Shown: positions 32,731-39,640 of the stretch, in pieces
Numbering within the stretch: the stretch's first letter is position 1
How the letters are laid out: each line of letters opens with the position of its first letter
NCBI RefSeq assembly: GCF_018350175.1
Contig: NC_058368.1
Span: forward strand, 38,132,001 to 38,196,000
Source: Felis catus
Lineage: Eukaryota
Direction: 5' to 3'
Length of the DNA: 64,000 nucleotides
Program-made: the position numbers and the translations under genes
The notes under the pieces: model-generated
What the model was told of the DNA's origin: nothing
Databases searched by the model: none
The model's input: the letters and a program-made list of their open reading frames with translations, nothing else

Positions 32731-33331
32731 AATAATAAAGTAGCATAGGCTGCAGTGTTTATTATATCATGTGCTGTGTTTTAAGCACAAACACACATCT
32801 AGGAATGAGTTACTGTGATTTACGTTTTTTGTTACTATAAATCAAAGAAAATTTAATAATTACATATAAGCAAAAATGGAAAAACAAATATTAAAATTAG
32901 CAATATTAATTCAATGGAATAAATCTACTTCATTAGCATGAAATTGCTGAATGCAAAATAAATCTGATAAAATTGACAGTTGGGCACAACTTCTTTTGAG
33001 CTTACCATGATTAATGCTGAGGCTTATGATGGTTCTCAGTCTTACTCAATTTTTAAAATATAAAATACCATGAAACTTTCATTTGGATAGAAAAACACAA
33101 TAGATTTTGGTCTTCCTTGGCCAGAATACTAACTTATTTGCCAAATATTTTTTGTTAAATTAAAACTATTTAAAAATTTTAATTATAAAGTTTTTTTGTC
33201 TGTTTAGAGGAACTGCCATTTTATTGGAAGCCCCGTTGTGGGTCTGGAGAGCCAGTCTTTCACTGTGAGCCCTACTAAGGAATAGATTTGGGGGGTACAC
33301 CTGCTGAGACGGGTCTGGAGTTCCACATTAT

Positions 33332-33549
33332 GAAATTTTTTAAAAATGTTTTTATTTATTTTTGAGACAGAGAGAGACAGAGCATGGGCAGGGGAGGGGC
33401 AGAGAGAGAGGGAGACACAGAATCTGAAGCAGGCTCCAGGCTCTGAGCTGTCAGCACAGAGCCTGACATGGGGCTCGAGCTCACGGACTGTGAGATCATG
33501 ACGCGAGCTGAAGTCGGACGCTTAACCGACTAAGCCACCCAGGCGCCCC
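33332..33549 (-). mobile_element. Can-SINE (SINEC_Fc-type)
   Basis: Antisense SINE; flanking CCACATTAT repeat at 33323-33331 and 33556-33564. Confidence 0.95.
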
Positions 33550-33564
33550 AAAGGCCCACATTAT

Positions 33565-34410
33565 AGCCTCACCATCCAGAGCAGGCAGGTCACCTTGGCA
33601 CTCCTAGTCCCCATCCGGCTCCCAGGCCCGGGAAAAGCAGAGCAGAGCCATGGAGGGGGCCTAGAACCAAAAGCGCAAGGCTCAAGCACCGCTCGAATGT
33701 CCAACCAAACCCCAAGCCTGTGCTGCTCCTTTTAAGGAAGGGCCGCAGAAAGGAGTCTGCCAGACATGGACTGGCCTATAGCTGGAGGGAATGCAGGACT
33801 AGGGGTGGAAAAAGAAGAGGCTGTCAGGAAAGGAGCCACAGAAACAAAGATAAAGCCAGGAGAGCACAGGAGAGTTCCCAGCAGGAGGCGGGGATGGTGA
33901 AGGGGCGGGCCCGGCCACGTTTGAGTAGCTCCAAGCAGGATGGAACCAGTTCTGCAGATGCTGCCCACTGTTCCGTGCCTGGGGCTCACCTCCAAGGAGT
34001 AGCGCCCAATCTTCTCACACACAGGTGAGCAGGGAGCGGCAGTAAAAGGGGAGGGGGTGGCAGGGTCCCTGGAAGGGCGACAGTTCTTCCCCCAACTCCA
34101 GTCCCACCCGCCAGCCAGCCAGTTGGCTTTGAGAGTGTAAATTGTGCGCCATTTTTTCCCATTACTGCCAACAATTTTCCTGGCAGACGTTTGCTCTCCC
34201 TGCCCACTGCAGTCCACCTGCTCGGTCCAGGGTCCCAGGTTCACTCGCAGAAGCAGATGGCGTGGATGGCGTGGTGCTTCTGACAGCGCGGAGTCACCAA
34301 TCCTCAGTGAATCAAACTAAAGTTTAGAGCAGGGACACACCGGGGTGGGCTTCCCAGTTTGTTAGGACGCAGCAGGCTTTCGGGGTGACCTGCATGTCAC
34401 CCTGAGTTGA
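33565..34410 (-). promoter_or_regulatory. Candidate GC-rich promoter / first exon
   Basis: Only non-repeat GC/CpG-enriched island in the window; GC box 33902-33909, CCAAT 34006 and 34297, YY1-type CGCCATTTT 34147-34155, minus-strand donor GAG|GTGAGC at 33990/33989. Confidence 0.55.
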
Positions 34411-34429
34411 GAAGAGGAGAGTGTGCAGA

Positions 34430-34985
34430 TCAAGGCAGCTAGAGTTTTAGAGCTGCATACTCTAAGGTAAACTATACATGAAAAGAGCCTCAGATAGGTG
34501 GAGAATCCCTCTCAAGTATGCAGCGGAGTACTAATTCACACGCATTTGAGGGAAATACCTGAGGCTGGGAAAAGAACCACCTGATACATCTTTAGAGAAA
34601 ACAATCTCCAGAGCTCAAATAGAGCAACGAGTAGTTTGTGTTTCACGGAGGTGTAAAAATGTTAATAAATCTTGGGCCATTGAGTAGAGTACTAAGAAAG
34701 GTATTGCCTCAGTAGTGAAATAAAACTAGCCAAGACTAAAGACTTGCTCTGGCCTTATGTGAGGTTCAAACTACTTCCAAGTAACCCAACTGGGTTGAAA
34801 TGAAACCTCAAGAATAATTTAGGTATGTAAAAATATTCGGTGCTCAAAAAGGTGAAATCCAGTGTGTCTGGCATTCAGTCAAAAATTACCAGTCAAGCAA
34901 AGAAGGATGAAAGTATGACCAAAATGAGGAGAAATTAAAGAGACCAGAAATGAGATACCAAAATTAACTATGGGCTGAATATTAT
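34430..34985 (+). mobile_element. Ancient L1M 5' region fragment
   Basis: GAGAATCCCTCTCAAGTATGCAGCGGAGTACT...GAGGCTGGGAAAAGAACCACC...TCTGGCATTCAGTCAAAAATTACCAG. Confidence 0.6.
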
Positions 34986-34992
34986 TAACATA

Positions 34993-35065
34993 TCTCTCTA
35001 TCTCTATCTCTATCTCTATCTCTATCTCTATCTCTATCTCTATTTCTATCTCTATATCTCTATCC
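34993..35065. repeat. (TCTCTA)n microsatellite
   Basis: Direct read. Confidence 0.95.
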
Positions 35066-35225
35066 AAATCTATCTATAGATAGACAGATATCTCTGCCAA
35101 ACCATATCTATGATACCGTTGTATTTATTGTTTACGTAAGTTATTGCCACAACAACATGTAGGCAGTTTAAATGTCTTTTTGAATAATCAGGTTTCATAT
35201 GTTCAATCTATTAAAAATCTATTTA

Positions 35226-35449
35226 GGGGTACGTGGGTGCCTCATTCAGTTAAGCCAGCTACTTTTGATTTTAGCTCATGTCATGATCTGACAGTTGGTG
35301 GGATTGAGCCCCGTGTTGGGCTCTGTGTTGACAGTATGGAGACTGTTTGGGATTCTCTCTCCCTCTTTCTCTGCCCATCCCCTGCTCACTTACGTGAATG
35401 CTGTCTCTCAAAGTAAATAAATAAACATTAAAAAAAAAACAAACAAACT
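35226..35449 (+). mobile_element. Can-SINE
   Basis: Sense SINE with A-rich tail. Confidence 0.9.
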
Positions 35450-35464
35450 ACCATTTAAGAATAT

Positions 35465-36736
35465 GCACATGTGGGAGGGTGGGTGGGCAAGGGTCACCAG
35501 TGATGACCCCAGGCAAAGCTGGTGCTCCTGCCCCAGTGCCCAACTGGTTGGATCTGCTTAGGCATGATCTTGGCGACCCTCATCTTCAACACCATGGGAA
35601 GCCAAGGCTTTCCAAGTTCTACAAGCCCTACAGAGAAGATACACGACAGCCAGTCATCAGGGAGACATTCTATTTAGTATCTAAGAGAGAGGAAAATGTA
35701 ATTTCTTAGAAGGAGAATTGTTAATTGGAGGATCTGACAACAAACTGATTTATAGACATTATGCAACATTATACTTTGTCTTCTATGTGGATTCTTCACA
35801 AAGTGAACTTGGCATTTTAAATCCAATTCAATCACCCAGGAAGCCCAAGATTCATGGATCTCTTACCATGTGTATACAGATCTGACCCCCAAACCCACCA
35901 ATCCCTGCTTCTTGAAAATCTTTCATAATGTCCTTAGAACTCAAAGTATTTGTGGAAACATTAGACAAGCGTTTTGAAAATGTCTGTGAACTGGATTTAA
36001 TTTACAATGTAGGCAAGGTTCACAATATTCTTGCAGAAATGGTGATGGAGTGAATGGTATTGGAGACAAAAATGAATGAGATTGTTACAGAAATTCATGA
36101 ACAAAATAAACTGGAGAAATCTGAGGCTGGCTTTGCAGGATCTCTAGCCTGTGCTGTATCAGCTGTAAAAAATATGAATCTTCCTGAGATCCCAAGAAAT
36201 ATTGACACTGCTGATAGCAGTATAAAAAAGAAATATTGATATTGCTGATACCAAACCTGCCCTTTATTTAAAATAAAAATTAAAAAGGCCACTCCCAGAT
36301 AAAATCCAGGGGAAAAGTCATTTAAGTTTACCATGCAGTTGTTTACCAAAAATAGAAGAGGAGAGTCTTAACTTTTGCTCTTGGATTGAAGTCCAGATAC
36401 TGTATAGAAGTTGTGTGAAATCAGTATGGAAGCTGAACGTTGCTTTTTTTGCTCAGTGATTTTGAAGAAACTGAGTAGTACCCCTGTGATATTTCTCTTT
36501 CTTTTCTGAACTACATTCCCATATCCACCTAAGGCATGCCTCTATGGACTGACTACTACAGTATTTCAAAAAGTGTTTGAGACATTTCTTTAAATTATGT
36601 CCTTTAAACAATCCAAATGTTTTTTGTATGGTTCACAAGAGCAGCATTCCACAGTTCTTTCTGTCATTTGTTACAATTGTTATTTAAAAAACCAAGTATG
36701 TATTGCGTGAAAACATTATGACCTTTGTCTCTCTTT
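35465..36736 (+). pseudogene. AP3S1: Processed pseudogene of AP-3 complex subunit sigma-1 (5' UTR, disrupted CDS 35564-~36276, most of 3' UTR)
   Basis: HGKPRLSKFY..ETFYLVSKREENV, LLIGGSDNKLIYRHYATLYFVF, VFVETLDK.FENVCELDL, MVLET.MNEIVT..NKLEKSEAG..AVSAVKNMNLPEIPRNI are contiguous without introns; frameshifts and a TGA at 36051. Confidence 0.96.
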
Positions 36737-37354
36737 TTAAATTTATTTTTCAATTAAAAAGGACCATTTTATTGATAGTAAGTACCGTTCACCTTAGAAA
36801 AAAGAGCTTTGGAAAAAGGCTGATTTACTACATGGCCTCAGCATGAAGCCTAGGGAGGGCCTTCTATATCATAGCAAATCTAGATAATACTATCAACATA
36901 CTCAAATTTCATGGGAGAAAACAGTGGTAATTGGGTAAATCAAAACACCCATTTCTTGTACGAGCTGCCTCTTTGAGAGATGTGCAAAGGTGATATATCA
37001 CACTCCATTCTGGCCACTGCTGAGGTCATTCTAGGTAGTCAGTCTGTTTTCTGGATACTAGCCTTGGTAGTCCCATCTTGTTGTCCTGGATTTCTGATGC
37101 CCATTGAAGGGAGCCTCAGCACACCAGAACAATAATTAAGTCATGATTCTGTCTACCGCCTGAAGTGGCTATGCATAACAAAGCAGGAAACCATCTTCCA
37201 ATATCTGTATGCCGACTTCTCCCCTCTGTGGGGGTTTGTCCTCGAACTTTACCTATGTCCTCTCCTCTCAGTGAGTTTCTTTTTGTTTTTTAAAGGGTGA
37301 CTTTGATCTTTTACCTTCCTGTATTTTCTGTGAAAAATGTGTCATTATTGGTCG
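36734..37354 (-). other. Putative L1 3'-transduced unique sequence with its own poly(A) signal and tail
   Basis: Non-L1 sequence downstream (minus sense) of the L1 tail; AATAAA at 36773-36768 and T-tract 36734-36750. Confidence 0.7.
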
Positions 37355-37779
37355 TTATTTTTATTATTTATTTATTTATTTATTGTCAAGTTAGCTAACA
37401 TAGAGTATAGCCTTGGCTTCAGGAGTAGATTCCCATGATTCATCAGTTATATACAACACCCAATGCTCAGCCCAACAAGTGGCCTCCTCAATGCTCATCA
37501 CCCATTTTTCCCACCCCCTAACCCCCCACCCCCATCATATATCAATTTGTTCTCTGTATTTAAGAGTTTCTTATGGTTTGCCTGCCTCTCTGTTTGTATC
37601 TTATTTTCCTTCCCTTTCCCTATGATCTTCTGTTAACTTTCTCAAATTCCACATGTGAGTGAAATCACATGATGTCTGTCTTTCTCTGACTTATTTCACT
37701 TAGCATAATACCCTCCTGTTCAATCCACATTGTTGCAAATGTAAAGATTTCAAGCTTTTCCATCACCGAGTAGTATTCC

Positions 37780-37820
<41 letters not shown>

Positions 37821-37851
37821 ATGCATGTATACACATACATGCCACCTCTTT

Positions 37852-37886
<35 letters not shown>

Positions 37887-39640
37887 TTAATATATGAAAT
37901 TTATTGTCAAATTGGTTTCCATACAACACACAGTGCTCATCCCAAAAGGTGCCCTCCTCAATACCCATCACCCACCCTCCCCTCCCTCCCACCCCCCTAT
38001 CAACCCTCAGTTCTCAGTTTTTAAGAGTCTCTTATGCTTTTGCTCTCTCCCATTCTAACCTCTTTTTTTTCCCTTCCCCTCCCCCATGGGTTCCTGTTAA
38101 GTTTCTCAGGATCCACATAAGAGTGAACACATATGGTATCTGTCTTTCTCTGTATGGCTTATTTCACTCAGCGTAACACTCTCCAGTTCCATCCACATTG
38201 CTACAAAGGGCCATATTTCATTCTTTCTTATTGCCACGTAGTACTCCATTGTGTATATAAACCACAATTTCTTTATCCGTTCATCAGTTAATGGACATTT
38301 AGGTTCTTTCCATAATTTGGCTATTGTTGATAGTACTGTTATAAACATTGGGGTGCATGTGTCCCTAAGAATCGGCACTCCTCTGTCCTTTGGATAAATT
38401 CCTAGTAGTGCAATTTCTGGGTCATAGGGCAATTCTATTTTTAATTTTGTAAGGAACCTCTACAGTGTTTTCGAAAGTGGGTGCACCATTTTGCATTTCC
38501 ACCAACAGTGCAAGAGGGTTCCCCTGCCTTCACATCCTCGCCAACATCTGTTATAGCCTGAGTTGTTAATTTTAGACACTCTGACCAGTGGGAGATGATA
38601 TCTCAATGTGTTTTTTATTTGTATTTCCCTGATGATGAGTAATGTTGAGCATCTTTTCATGTGTCTGTTTCCCATCTGGATGTCTTCTTTGGAAAAATGT
38701 CTATTCATGTTTTCTACCCATTTTTTCACTGGATTATTTGTTTTGGGGGTGTTGAGCTTAAGTTCTTTATAGATTTGGATACTATCCCCTTATCTGATAG
38801 GTCATTTGTAAATATCTTTTCCCATTCCATCAGTTGCCTTTTAATGTTGTTGATTGTTTCCTTTGCTGTGAAGAAGGTTTTTATCTTGATGAGGTCCCAA
38901 TAGTTTATTTTTGCTTTTGTTTCCCTTGCCTTTGGAGACATGTCAAGTAAGAAGTTGCTGCAGCTGAAGTCAAAGAGTTTGCTGCCTATTTTCTGCTATA
39001 GGATTTTGATGGTTTCTTGGCTCACATTTAGGTCTTTCATCCATTTTGAATTTATTTTTGTGTATGGTGTAACAAGGTGGTCCAGTTTTATTTTTCTGCA
39101 TGTGGTTGTCCAGTTCTCCCAGAACCATTTGCTGAAGGGACTGTCTTTTTTTCCATTGGATACTCTTTCCTGTTTTGTCAAAGGTTAGTTGACCATATAT
39201 TTGTTGGTCCATGTCTTGGTTCTCTATTCTATTCCATTGGTCTATGTGTCTTGTTTTGTGCCAGTACTATACTGTCTTGATTAATACACCTTAGTAATAC
39301 AGGCATAAGTCCAAGATTGTGATGCCCCAGCTTTGGATTTCTTTTTCAACATTATGTTGGCTCTTTGGGGTCATCTGTGGTTCCATACAAATTTTAGGGT
39401 TGTTTGTTCTATGTCTGTGAAGAATGCTGGTGCTATTTTGATTGGGATTGCATTGAATGTGTAGATTGCTTTGGGTAGTATCGACATTTTAACAATACTT
39501 GTTCTAATCCATGAGCATGGAATGTTTTTCCATTTCTTTGTGTCTCCTTCAATTTCTTTCATAAACTTTCAGCATACAGAAATTTTACCTCTTTGGTTAG
39601 GTTTATTCCTAGGGATCTTATGGTTCTTGGTGCAATTATA
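37355..39640 (-). mobile_element. Carnivore L1, 3' part (ORF2 C-terminus + two tandem 3' UTRs)
   Basis: Minus-strand ORF fragments [33 protein letters not shown]-rich tails at 37355-37385 and 37848-37890. Confidence 0.95.

What the first reader, a model, noticed from the sequence alone, without database searches (positions are those of the whole stretch)
35832..35945. AP3S1 retrocopy preserves an extra 114-nt cassette exon exactly at the exon 3/4 junction
Seen: a 114-nt segment with no poly(A) or clear TSD sits between codons ..I-Q (ATTCAA, 35831) and V-F-V (GTATTTGTG, 35946). Its length is a multiple of 3 but it reads SPRKPKIHGSLTMCIQI*. Recalled: AP3S1 exon 3 ends at codon Q91 (c.273). Inference: the retrotransposed mRNA was an alternatively spliced isoform with a cryptic or poison exon from parental intron 3. 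The pseudogene is then a fossil record of an isoform, probably an NMD target, that may be unannotated.
Basis: partly seen in the sequence, partly recalled or inferred. Interest (0 to 1): 0.75.

Follow-up and report, generated by a model that had tools for sequence, protein, structure and literature searches.

The report
Pseudogene fossil of AP3S1 poison exon
A dead, intron-less copy of the AP3S1 gene in a cat-like genome carries an extra 114-base piece that is a real alternative exon, with a stop codon, from inside the living gene's third intron; this is a known kind of genomic fossil that here points to a splice form not found in the protein records searched.

Summary

- **Where it sits.** Window 35832-35945 lies exactly between the exon 3 and exon 4 parts of an AP3S1 processed pseudogene.
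- **Where it comes from.** The parent gene is on the same contig, about 56 Mb away. The segment maps into parental intron 3, 229 nt after exon 3. Homology starts right after a polypyrimidine tract plus AG and ends right before GT.
- **Other retrocopies.** Six other junction-spanning loci (five events) join exon 3 directly to exon 4.
- **A second capture.** An independent retrocopy on C21 has its own target-site duplication and no flank homology to the window. It carries the same cassette plus a 48-nt in-frame cassette from intron 5.
- **Coding effect.** All three cassette versions (113, 114 and 115 nt) contain the same TGA. The window and parent reading frames stop inside the cassette, so it behaves as a poison exon. 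NMD sensitivity is inferred, not shown.
- **Prior records.** No protein isoform and no paper with this exon was found.

The principle is known (Shemesh 2006). This scan met the same kind of case before on other DNA (e1-604145). I class it as a new member of a known kind, of modest interest.

The parts
35470..35631 (+). Exon 1-derived part of the AP3S1 retrocopy (5'UTR and first 23 codons; ATG at 35564-35566; 1-nt deletion near 35590)
   Evidence: Local alignment to the parental exon 1 region, L025:1425-1602. Genome search matched 35531-35631 at 81%. Indel list.
35632..35719 (+). Exon 2-derived part (4-nt deletion near 35696 breaks the frame)
   Evidence: 86% to parental exon 2; exon map and indels.
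35720..35831 (+). Exon 3-derived part, ending at the codon for Q91 (ATT CAA)
   Evidence: 96% to parental exon 3. Parental exon 3 ends ATTCAA|GTAAGT. PDB alignment ends at residue 91.
35832..35945 (+). Cassette '3b': 114-nt copy of an alternative exon from parental intron 3 (the finding)
   Evidence: 88% to C1:94351220-94351325, E 5.1e-29. Its boundaries coincide with AG and GT in the parent. It is absent from 6 other junction-spanning retrocopy loci.
35883..35885 (+). In-frame TGA inside the cassette (codon 18 of the cassette in the AP3S1 frame)
   Evidence: The ORF 35685-35885 ends here. The same TGA letters are present in the parent and in the C21 copy.
35946..36017 (+). Exon 4-derived part
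   Evidence: 92% to parental exon 4; exon map.
36018..36124 (+). Exon 5-derived part (contains a TGA where the parent has GGG GGG ATG)
   Evidence: 87% to parental exon 5; exon map; sequence.
36125..36742 (+). Exon 6-derived part (end of the coding sequence and 3'UTR), with a short internal tandem duplication at 36194-36253. Only a decayed A-run (AAAAA at about 36758) follows and no confident target-site duplication was found
   Evidence: 84% to parental exon 6. The 3' end alignment stops at 36742. Duplication is family D10, seen as a 20-nt insertion.

Best explanation
Window about 35470-36742 is a processed pseudogene (L1-type retrocopy) of AP3S1. Its template was not the standard six-exon mRNA. 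It was a spliced isoform that included an extra cassette exon ('3b', ancestrally about 114 nt) lying in parental intron 3, 229 nt downstream of exon 3. The spliceosome removed the 229-nt mini-intron and the remaining 21.2 kb of intron 3, using the AG and GT that still flank the segment in the parent. The resulting mRNA was reverse-transcribed and inserted in the germ line. The same isoform was captured a second time, independently, at C21:41.14 Mb. The exon carries an in-frame stop, so the isoform would encode only residues 1-91 of sigma-3A plus a short tail of 17 aa (114-nt form) or 31 aa (present 113-nt parental form). That product lacks the C-terminal half of the sigma-adaptin fold. The stop lies about 200 nt upstream of the last exon junction, so the isoform is expected to be an NMD substrate, that is, a poison exon. 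Shown here: the mapping, the splice-signal flanks, the exact junctions, the stops, and the independence of the two captures. Inferred: NMD sensitivity, any regulatory role, and whether the exon is still spliced today.
For: (1) The cassette hits only 3 places in the 2.43-Gb genome: itself, parental intron 3 (88%, E 5.1e-29) and the C21 retrocopy (83%).
(2) All six parental exons were found in order on C1:94324133-94396822, with the cassette match lying between exon 3 and exon 4.
(3) In the parent the segment is preceded by a polypyrimidine run plus AG and followed by GTCGGT. Exons 1-6 all show GT-AG introns.
(4) When 788 nt of parental intron were searched against the genome, the retrocopies matched only query 230-344 (C21) and 235-340 (window). 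That is the cassette and nothing of the flanking intron.
(5) 6 of 8 junction-spanning retrocopy loci join ATTCAA directly to GTATTTGTG-like exon 4. The other 2 of 8 carry the cassette at exactly that point.
(6) The two cassette copies look independent. Each is closer to the parent (88.7% and 84.4%) than to the other (79.3%). They share only 2 of 1034 exclusive derived sites, within the 0-16 range of the other 20 pairs. Their flanks show no homology, and the C21 copy has its own AATCCAGTTCAA duplication plus an A-tail.
(7) Stops: the window frame stops at TGA 35883-35885. The parental cassette reads SCKKPTIPDLLPCVSRSDPQTHPSLPPENLS*.
Against: No RNA evidence was obtained, so present-day use of the exon and its NMD sensitivity remain untested. 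No protein with the cassette-encoded tail was found (details under Tried and rejected). The parental splice signals are weak by consensus as I recall it: AAG at the acceptor, and C at +3 and G at -2 of the donor. The cassette shows no sign of the strong conservation typical of classical poison exons. Parent-only changes are 5 of 113 sites plus one 1-nt indel, against 2 of 352 in coding exons 1-4 (Fisher p 0.011), and are similar to exon 6/3'UTR at 18 of 575 (p 0.56). The AU test does not reject a tree that joins the two cassette copies (p 0.276), so their independence rests on flanks, target-site duplication and site patterns rather than on the tree.
Confidence: 0.9

Rival explanations
1. One-off splicing noise. 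The cassette was never a recurrent isoform; an aberrant, cryptically spliced transcript merely happened to be retrotransposed.
For: Weak acceptor (AAG) and donor (AGG|GTCGGT) in the present parent. Near-neutral evolution of the cassette in the parent. No matching protein isoform in the database. The C21 template also carried a second unusual exon, 5b, which could mean a generally sloppy transcript.
Against: Two independent captures among 7 independent junction-spanning events. P(at least 2 of 7) is 0.002 if inclusion were 1% and 2e-5 if it were 0.1%. Leaving out the ascertained window copy, 1 of 6 gives P 0.059 at 1%. The two captures differ in age (K2P 0.178 and 0.124), so the same AG/GT pair was used at two different times.
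Confidence: 0.07
2. The two cassette-bearing copies stem from a single capture (one copy duplicated, or re-retrotransposed from the other), so the isoform was recorded only once.
For: The AU test does not reject a clade of the two (p 0.276). They share 5 states in the cassette that differ from the parent.
Against: Each is nearer to the parent than to the other. Only 2 of 1034 exclusive shared derived sites lie outside the cassette, no more than unrelated pairs show. The shortfall from additivity is the same for window versus C47, which lacks the cassette. Flanks are unrelated, and the C21 copy is 5'-truncated with its own target-site duplication. C21 has cassette 5b and the window does not. 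The 5 shared cassette states are as expected from changes on the parental intron since both insertions.
Confidence: 0.04
3. A DNA-level insertion into the pseudogene after it formed (filler DNA, a transposon fragment, or gene conversion), unrelated to splicing.
For: The segment has no intrinsic feature that proves an RNA origin when read alone.
Against: It lies to the base at the exon 3/4 junction in two unlinked retrocopies. It matches single-copy parental intron bounded by AG and GT. It has no target-site duplication, no A-tail and no other copies in the genome.
Confidence: 0.01
4. A productive alternative coding exon that adds residues to sigma-3A, not a poison exon.
For: The window copy is 114 nt, a multiple of 3. 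The C21 copy reads open through the cassette.
Against: The window (114-nt) frame stops at TGA, and the same TGA letters are in all three versions. The parental 113-nt form shifts frame and stops at TAA. The C21 open frame results from its private 1-nt insertion.
Confidence: 0.02

Closest known systems
Processed pseudogenes as 'genomic fossils' of splice variants (Shemesh, Novik, Edelheit, Sorek 2006, PNAS 103:1364)
   Same: An intron-less retrocopy preserves the exon composition of an alternatively spliced parental mRNA, including exons missing from annotation. I saw this paper only in reference lists, because the paper itself is not held. Carelli et al. 2016 (PMC4772013, passage read) cite it for retrocopies serving as archives of transcript isoforms.
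   Different: This is a specific, apparently undescribed case in AP3S1 of a cat-like genome. The same stop-bearing cassette is captured twice independently and at different ages. What the 2006 paper reports in detail is recalled, not read here.
MSANTD2 retrocopy with a stop-bearing alternative exon
   Same: A dead retrocopy whose template mRNA carried an alternative exon with a premature stop (note seen).
   Different: Different gene and genome. That exon was described as conserved, whereas here the parental cassette evolves about as fast as UTR. I did not re-test that finding.
Classical poison exons coupled to NMD (for example in SR-protein genes; recalled, not from any call)
   Same: A cassette exon with an in-frame stop well upstream of the last exon junction, expected to send the mRNA to NMD.
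   Different: Classical cases are highly conserved and autoregulated. Here no constraint is seen (5 of 113 parent-only changes plus an indel), the splice signals are weak, and no regulation is known.
Annotated AP3S1 short isoforms in vertebrates
   Same: They diverge from the standard protein right after ...DLIQ (end of exon 3): exon 3 to exon 5 (VHNIL..., 13 of 122 stored proteins), exon 3 to exon 6 (AGLAG..., 8 of 122), and intron read-through forms.
   Different: 0 of 122 carry the cassette-encoded tail.

Membership tests
Processed pseudogene (retrocopy) of AP3S1 | All parental exons present in order, without introns, at a locus other than the parent | tested here: met
   Exons 1-6 of the gene at C1:94.32-94.40 Mb align colinearly to window 35531-36742, about 56 Mb away on the same contig. 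Protein identity is AP-3 sigma-1.
Processed pseudogene (retrocopy) of AP3S1 | Poly(A) tail and target-site duplication | tested here: inconclusive
   The window copy has only AAAAA after the 3'UTR and a 7-nt ACCATTT on both sides. The C21 copy has a clear AATCCAGTTCAA duplication and an A-run.
Processed pseudogene (retrocopy) of AP3S1 | Disabling mutations / no intact reading frame | tested here: met
   1-nt and 4-nt deletions in exons 1 and 2, stops, and a 20-nt insertion.
Cassette (alternative) exon of the parent gene | Sequence lies in the parental intron between the two flanking exons, same strand | tested here: met
   C1:94351215-94351327, between exon 3 (ends 94350985) and exon 4 (starts 94372526).
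Cassette (alternative) exon of the parent gene | Flanked by a 3' splice site (polypyrimidine tract + AG) and a 5' splice site (GT), with homology ending at them | tested here: met
   ...cccttttttcttgttaacgtaAG|TCATGC...CTCAGG|GTcggt. Retrocopy matches stop at these bases.
Cassette (alternative) exon of the parent gene | Included in some and skipped in other mature transcripts | tested here: met
   As recorded by retrocopies, 2 of 8 junction-spanning loci include it and 6 of 8 skip it.
Cassette (alternative) exon of the parent gene | Junction-spanning RNA reads today | not testable with these tools
Poison exon / NMD-coupled unproductive splicing | In-frame premature stop more than about 50-55 nt upstream of the last exon junction (rule recalled) | tested here: met
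   Parent: TAA 17 nt before the cassette end, then exon 4 (72 nt) and exon 5 (107 nt), so about 196 nt to the last junction. Window form: TGA at 35883-35885.
Poison exon / NMD-coupled unproductive splicing | Isoform rises when NMD is inhibited | not testable with these tools
   No such data could be reached.
Poison exon / NMD-coupled unproductive splicing | Sequence conservation above the neutral level (typical of the classical cases, not strictly defining) | tested here: not met
   Parent-only changes are 5 of 113 plus 1 indel in the cassette, against 2 of 352 in coding exons 1-4 (p 0.011) and 18 of 575 in exon 6 (p 0.56). Numbers are small.
Exonised transposable element | Exon is part of an interspersed repeat with many genomic copies | tested here: not met
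   Only 3 places match the cassette. In the 788-nt intron search the repeat hits fall about 310 nt downstream (query 654-788), not on the cassette. Very old repeats could escape this search.
Recursive-splicing exon | Exon starts with GTAAGT-like letters so that a 5' splice site is rebuilt after the first step (motif recalled) | tested here: not met
   A GTAAGT does overlap the acceptor (cGTAAG|T), but the exon starts TCATGC, so the junction CAA|TCATGC rebuilds no donor.

The most novel reading that the evidence does not exclude
AP3S1 has a long-lived, unannotated unproductive-splicing switch. Exon 3b would have been included in a sizeable share (several percent or more) of germ-line AP3S1 mRNA over tens of millions of years, enough to be fossilised twice. 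This implies either weak NMD in germ cells or regulated dosage control of the AP-3 sigma subunit. Together with the in-frame 48-nt exon 5b, the retrocopy family would then be a time-stamped archive of AP3S1 isoforms that annotation misses.
Probability: 0.2. Interest if true: 0.5.

Novelty: new member of a known kind. Interest (0 to 1): 0.3.

Why it matters
It gives exact coordinates and splice junctions for a candidate unannotated AP3S1 poison exon (and a second, in-frame exon 5b), both of which can be tested directly in RNA-seq. It shows that the exon was used at two separate times in the lineage. It is also a clean worked example that an 'insertion' inside a pseudogene can be an exon and not junk, which matters for pseudogene annotation and for dating exon birth and loss. 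It does not change any general understanding, because retrocopies as archives of isoforms are established.

Tried and rejected
- **RNA evidence.** The look-up of sequencing runs on the parental cassette listed 20 rows that hold at least half of its 7 sampled words. Only one (X2, a gut metatranscriptome) is on record as RNA. None could be laid, so this is no evidence of expression.
- **Protein database.**
  - The 31-aa parental tail alone was too short.
  - A two-row alignment came out misaligned.
  - The three-row profile A3 found, at 17-116 aa, 1 hit among 364 candidates. That hit is the ORF of the C21 retrocopy itself in another data set, 81 of 83 identical.
  - The same profile at 117-2000 aa found 1 weak hit among 1881 candidates, without the tail.
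  - A search with exons 2-3 (49-158 aa) gave 309 hits, of which 120 were listed. 0 of the 122 proteins stored from all three searches hold any cassette-tail motif.
  - Proteins longer than 158 aa were covered only.
- **Papers.** There were 0 papers for AP3S1 + 'poison exon' and 0 for AP3S1 + nonsense-mediated decay + cassette exon.
  - AP3S1 + alternative splicing + exon inclusion gave 4 papers. In the one I followed up (PMC8151252; main-text passage and supplementary-table row read), the mouse Ap3s1 event concerns the 92-nt exon 2, not this cassette.
  - AP3S1 + NMD gave 8 papers, none about this exon judging by title and abstract. One preprint (passages read) concerns a microexon.
  - 'retrocop' + 'poison exon' gave 1 unrelated review.
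  - Supplements of bioRxiv preprints could not be seen.
- **Other negatives.** Rfam found nothing at the cassette. A transposon origin was rejected. A recursive-splice-site reading was rejected. Scan notes by sequence and by place returned nothing.

Full report
**1. The observation**

The window is part of a 2.43-Gb genome in 71 contigs, at G000:C1:38132001-38196000. Around 35470-36742 it holds an intron-less, disabled copy of AP3S1. Translations of 35685-35831 and 36054-36236 align to residues 45-91 and 128-185 of PDB chains named AP-3 complex subunit sigma-1, with E 1.6e-21 and 9e-22.

ATTCAA ends at 35831 and GTATTTGTG starts at 35946. The 114 nt between them read SPRKPKIHGSLTMCIQI and then TGA in the AP3S1 frame. 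The segment has no A-tail, no flanking duplication beyond 2 nt, and no second copy within 33000-39000.

**2. The parent gene and where the segment maps**

I searched the genome with the retrocopy. This found six colinear exon matches on the same contig, about 56 Mb away:

| Exon | Coordinates on C1 |
|---|---|
| 1 | 94324133-94324234 |
| 2 | 94348911-94349004 |
| 3 | 94350874-94350985 |
| 4 | 94372526-94372599 |
| 5 | 94387009-94387119 |
| 6 | 94396223-94396822 |

A seventh match, to the cassette, lies at 94351220-94351325, between exons 3 and 4.

The cassette alone hits just three places in the genome:

- itself;
- this intronic site (88% identity, E 5.1e-29);
- C21:41145101-41145209 (83% identity).

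In the parent the segment is 113 nt (C1:94351215-94351327) and starts 229 nt after exon 3. It is preceded by cccttttttcttgttaacgtaAG and followed by GTcggt. When 788 nt of the intron were searched, the retrocopies matched only the cassette (query 230-344 and 235-340) and none of the flanking intron. An unrelated interspersed repeat lies about 310 nt further downstream.

**3. The other retrocopies**

Besides the window there are eight AP3S1 retrocopy loci. One of them (C16) stops before the junction.

- Six loci join exon 3 directly to exon 4, base for base: C21:24.7M, C2:16.99M, C18, C13 and two C47 copies. The two C47 copies are 100% identical to each other and count as one event.
- One locus, C21:41.14M, carries the cassette at the same junction as the window, here 115 nt long.

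So the cassette is present in 2 of 8 junction-spanning loci, or 2 of 7 independent events.

**4. Are the two cassette copies independent?**

The evidence points to independence.

- Each is closer to the parent (88.7% and 84.4%) than to the other (79.3%). The departure from additivity is the same as for window versus C47, which lacks the cassette.
- Outside the cassette they share 2 of 1034 exclusive derived sites. The other 20 pairs range from 0 to 16.
- The tree is a star with terminal branches of 0.10 and 0.16. However, the AU test does not reject joining the two (p 0.276), so the tree alone is not decisive.
- Their flanks share nothing. The C21 copy is 5'-truncated and has its own AATCCAGTTCAA duplication and A-run.
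- K2P distances to the parent order the copies as follows:

| Copy | K2P to parent |
|---|---|
| C13 | 0.288 |
| C18 | 0.266 |
| C21:41.1M | 0.178 |
| window | 0.124 |
| C47 | 0.123 |
| C21:24.7M | 0.063 |
| C2 | 0.061 |

The same AG/GT pair was therefore used at two different times.

A UniRef protein labelled Lynx canadensis is 86 of 90 identical to the frame-shifted translation of the young C2 copy. The C2 copy is thus shared with another felid. By clock reasoning (my inference) the cassette copies are much older, on the order of tens of millions of years.

**5. What the exon would do**

The three versions are 113, 114 and 115 nt. The parent has a private 1-nt deletion and C21 a private 1-nt insertion, so 114 nt is the likely older state.

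- In the 114-nt frame a TGA is reached at codon 18. Those TGA letters are present in all three versions.
- The present parental form shifts frame and stops at TAA after 31 codons.

Either way the product would be sigma-3A residues 1-91 plus a short tail. The stop lies about 196 nt before the last exon junction. By the 50-55-nt rule, which I recall, the mRNA should be an NMD substrate. That is inference.

Three-way site patterns in the cassette give 9 window-only, 9 C21-only and 5 parent-only changes, with 2 sites where all three differ, out of 113. The parental rate exceeds that of coding exons 1-4 (2 of 352, p 0.011). It resembles exon 6/3'UTR (18 of 575, p 0.56). So no constraint is visible.

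The parental donor now reads AGG|GTCGGT where the retrocopies have AAG or AAA, and the acceptor is AAG. By consensus as I recall it these are weak signals, and the donor may have weakened since the captures.

**6. How common was the isoform?**

If retrocopies sample germ-line mRNA evenly, 2 of 7 gives a 95% interval of 3.7-71% inclusion, and P(at least 2 of 7) is 0.002 at 1% inclusion. The window copy was chosen because it has the cassette. Leaving it out, 1 of 6 gives an interval of 0.4-64% and P 0.059 at 1%. This is suggestive that the isoform was not mere noise, but it is not proof.

**7. What could not be shown**

RNA runs holding the parental cassette's words were listed (20 rows, one surely RNA), but none could be laid.

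Protein searches found no isoform with the cassette tail. After ...DLIQ the stored proteins continue with exon 4, exon 5, exon 6 or intron read-through. Literature searches found nothing on this exon. Gene annotations of felids or human could not be consulted.

**8. Comparison with what is known**

Retrocopies as archives of transcript isoforms are established. Carelli et al. 2016 (passage read) cite Shemesh et al. 2006 for this. That paper is not held, so I know its content only from recall and reference lists. This scan has already met a retrocopy with a stop-bearing alternative exon in another genome (e1-604145; not re-tested).

The present case is a new member of that kind. Its small added points are the double independent capture of a stop-bearing exon and the second cassette described below.

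**9. A second cassette, found in passing**

The C21 retrocopy has 48 extra nt exactly at the exon 5/6 junction. They match parental intron 5 at L006:142-188 (44 of 47 identical; genome search 94%, only 2 places). There the segment L006:140-187 is flanked by tcctttattcAG and GTaaca. It reads QIVYTGLFCISQDFSQ in frame without a stop. No other retrocopy has it. So the C21 template was exon 1-2-3-3b-4-5-5b-6.

Noticed in passing
L003:1791-1838 (C21:41.145 Mb) and L006:140-187 (C1:94394862-94394909): The C21 retrocopy carries a second junction insert, 48 nt at the exon 5/6 junction. It maps to parental intron 5, about 1.3 kb before exon 6, and is flanked there by a polypyrimidine tract plus AG and by GTAACA. 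It is in frame and stop-free (QIVYTGLFCISQDFSQ). This is a candidate productive alternative exon '5b'. Its first two letters differ between the retrocopy (GT) and the parent (CA).
   Followed up: partly
window 35225-35445: A carnivore-type tRNA-derived SINE with an A-rich tail lies directly upstream of the retrocopy's 5' end. Similar SINEs interrupt the C21 and C2 retrocopies (L003 about 1893-2090).
   Followed up: no
window 34983-35096: A (TCTCTA)n-type microsatellite with a 12-nt register, 7 copies (family D1).
   Followed up: no
window 36194-36253: A short tandem duplication (26-nt units 34 nt apart, 88% alike) inside the exon 6-derived part of the retrocopy. It is absent from the parent and appears as a 20-nt insertion in the alignment.
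   Followed up: partly
window 37451-38254: Four direct-repeat families spaced 464-470 nt apart at 75-80% identity: two adjacent, diverged copies of some element downstream of the retrocopy (D2-D5).
   Followed up: no
L008/L009 (C47:49989542-49990595 + and C47:49903484-49904537 -): Two AP3S1 retrocopies, 100% identical over 1081 nt, in inverted orientation about 86 kb apart. This indicates a recent inverted segmental duplication or palindrome.
   Followed up: no
L019:1837-1842 (parent, acceptor of the cassette): The acceptor AG of the cassette is the AG inside a perfect GTAAGT motif (aacGTAAG|T), so a donor-like motif overlaps the 3' splice site. Its effect is unknown, and it does not fit a recursive splice site.
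   Followed up: partly
P0001 and P0003 (protein collection): Gene callers have produced 'proteins' from two of these dead retrocopies in other data sets. One is an 83-aa ORF of the C21 copy (81 of 83 identical). The other is a 121-aa model labelled Lynx canadensis on the C2 copy (86 of 90 identical, including an out-of-frame N-terminus). These are pseudogene models posing as proteins.
   Followed up: partly
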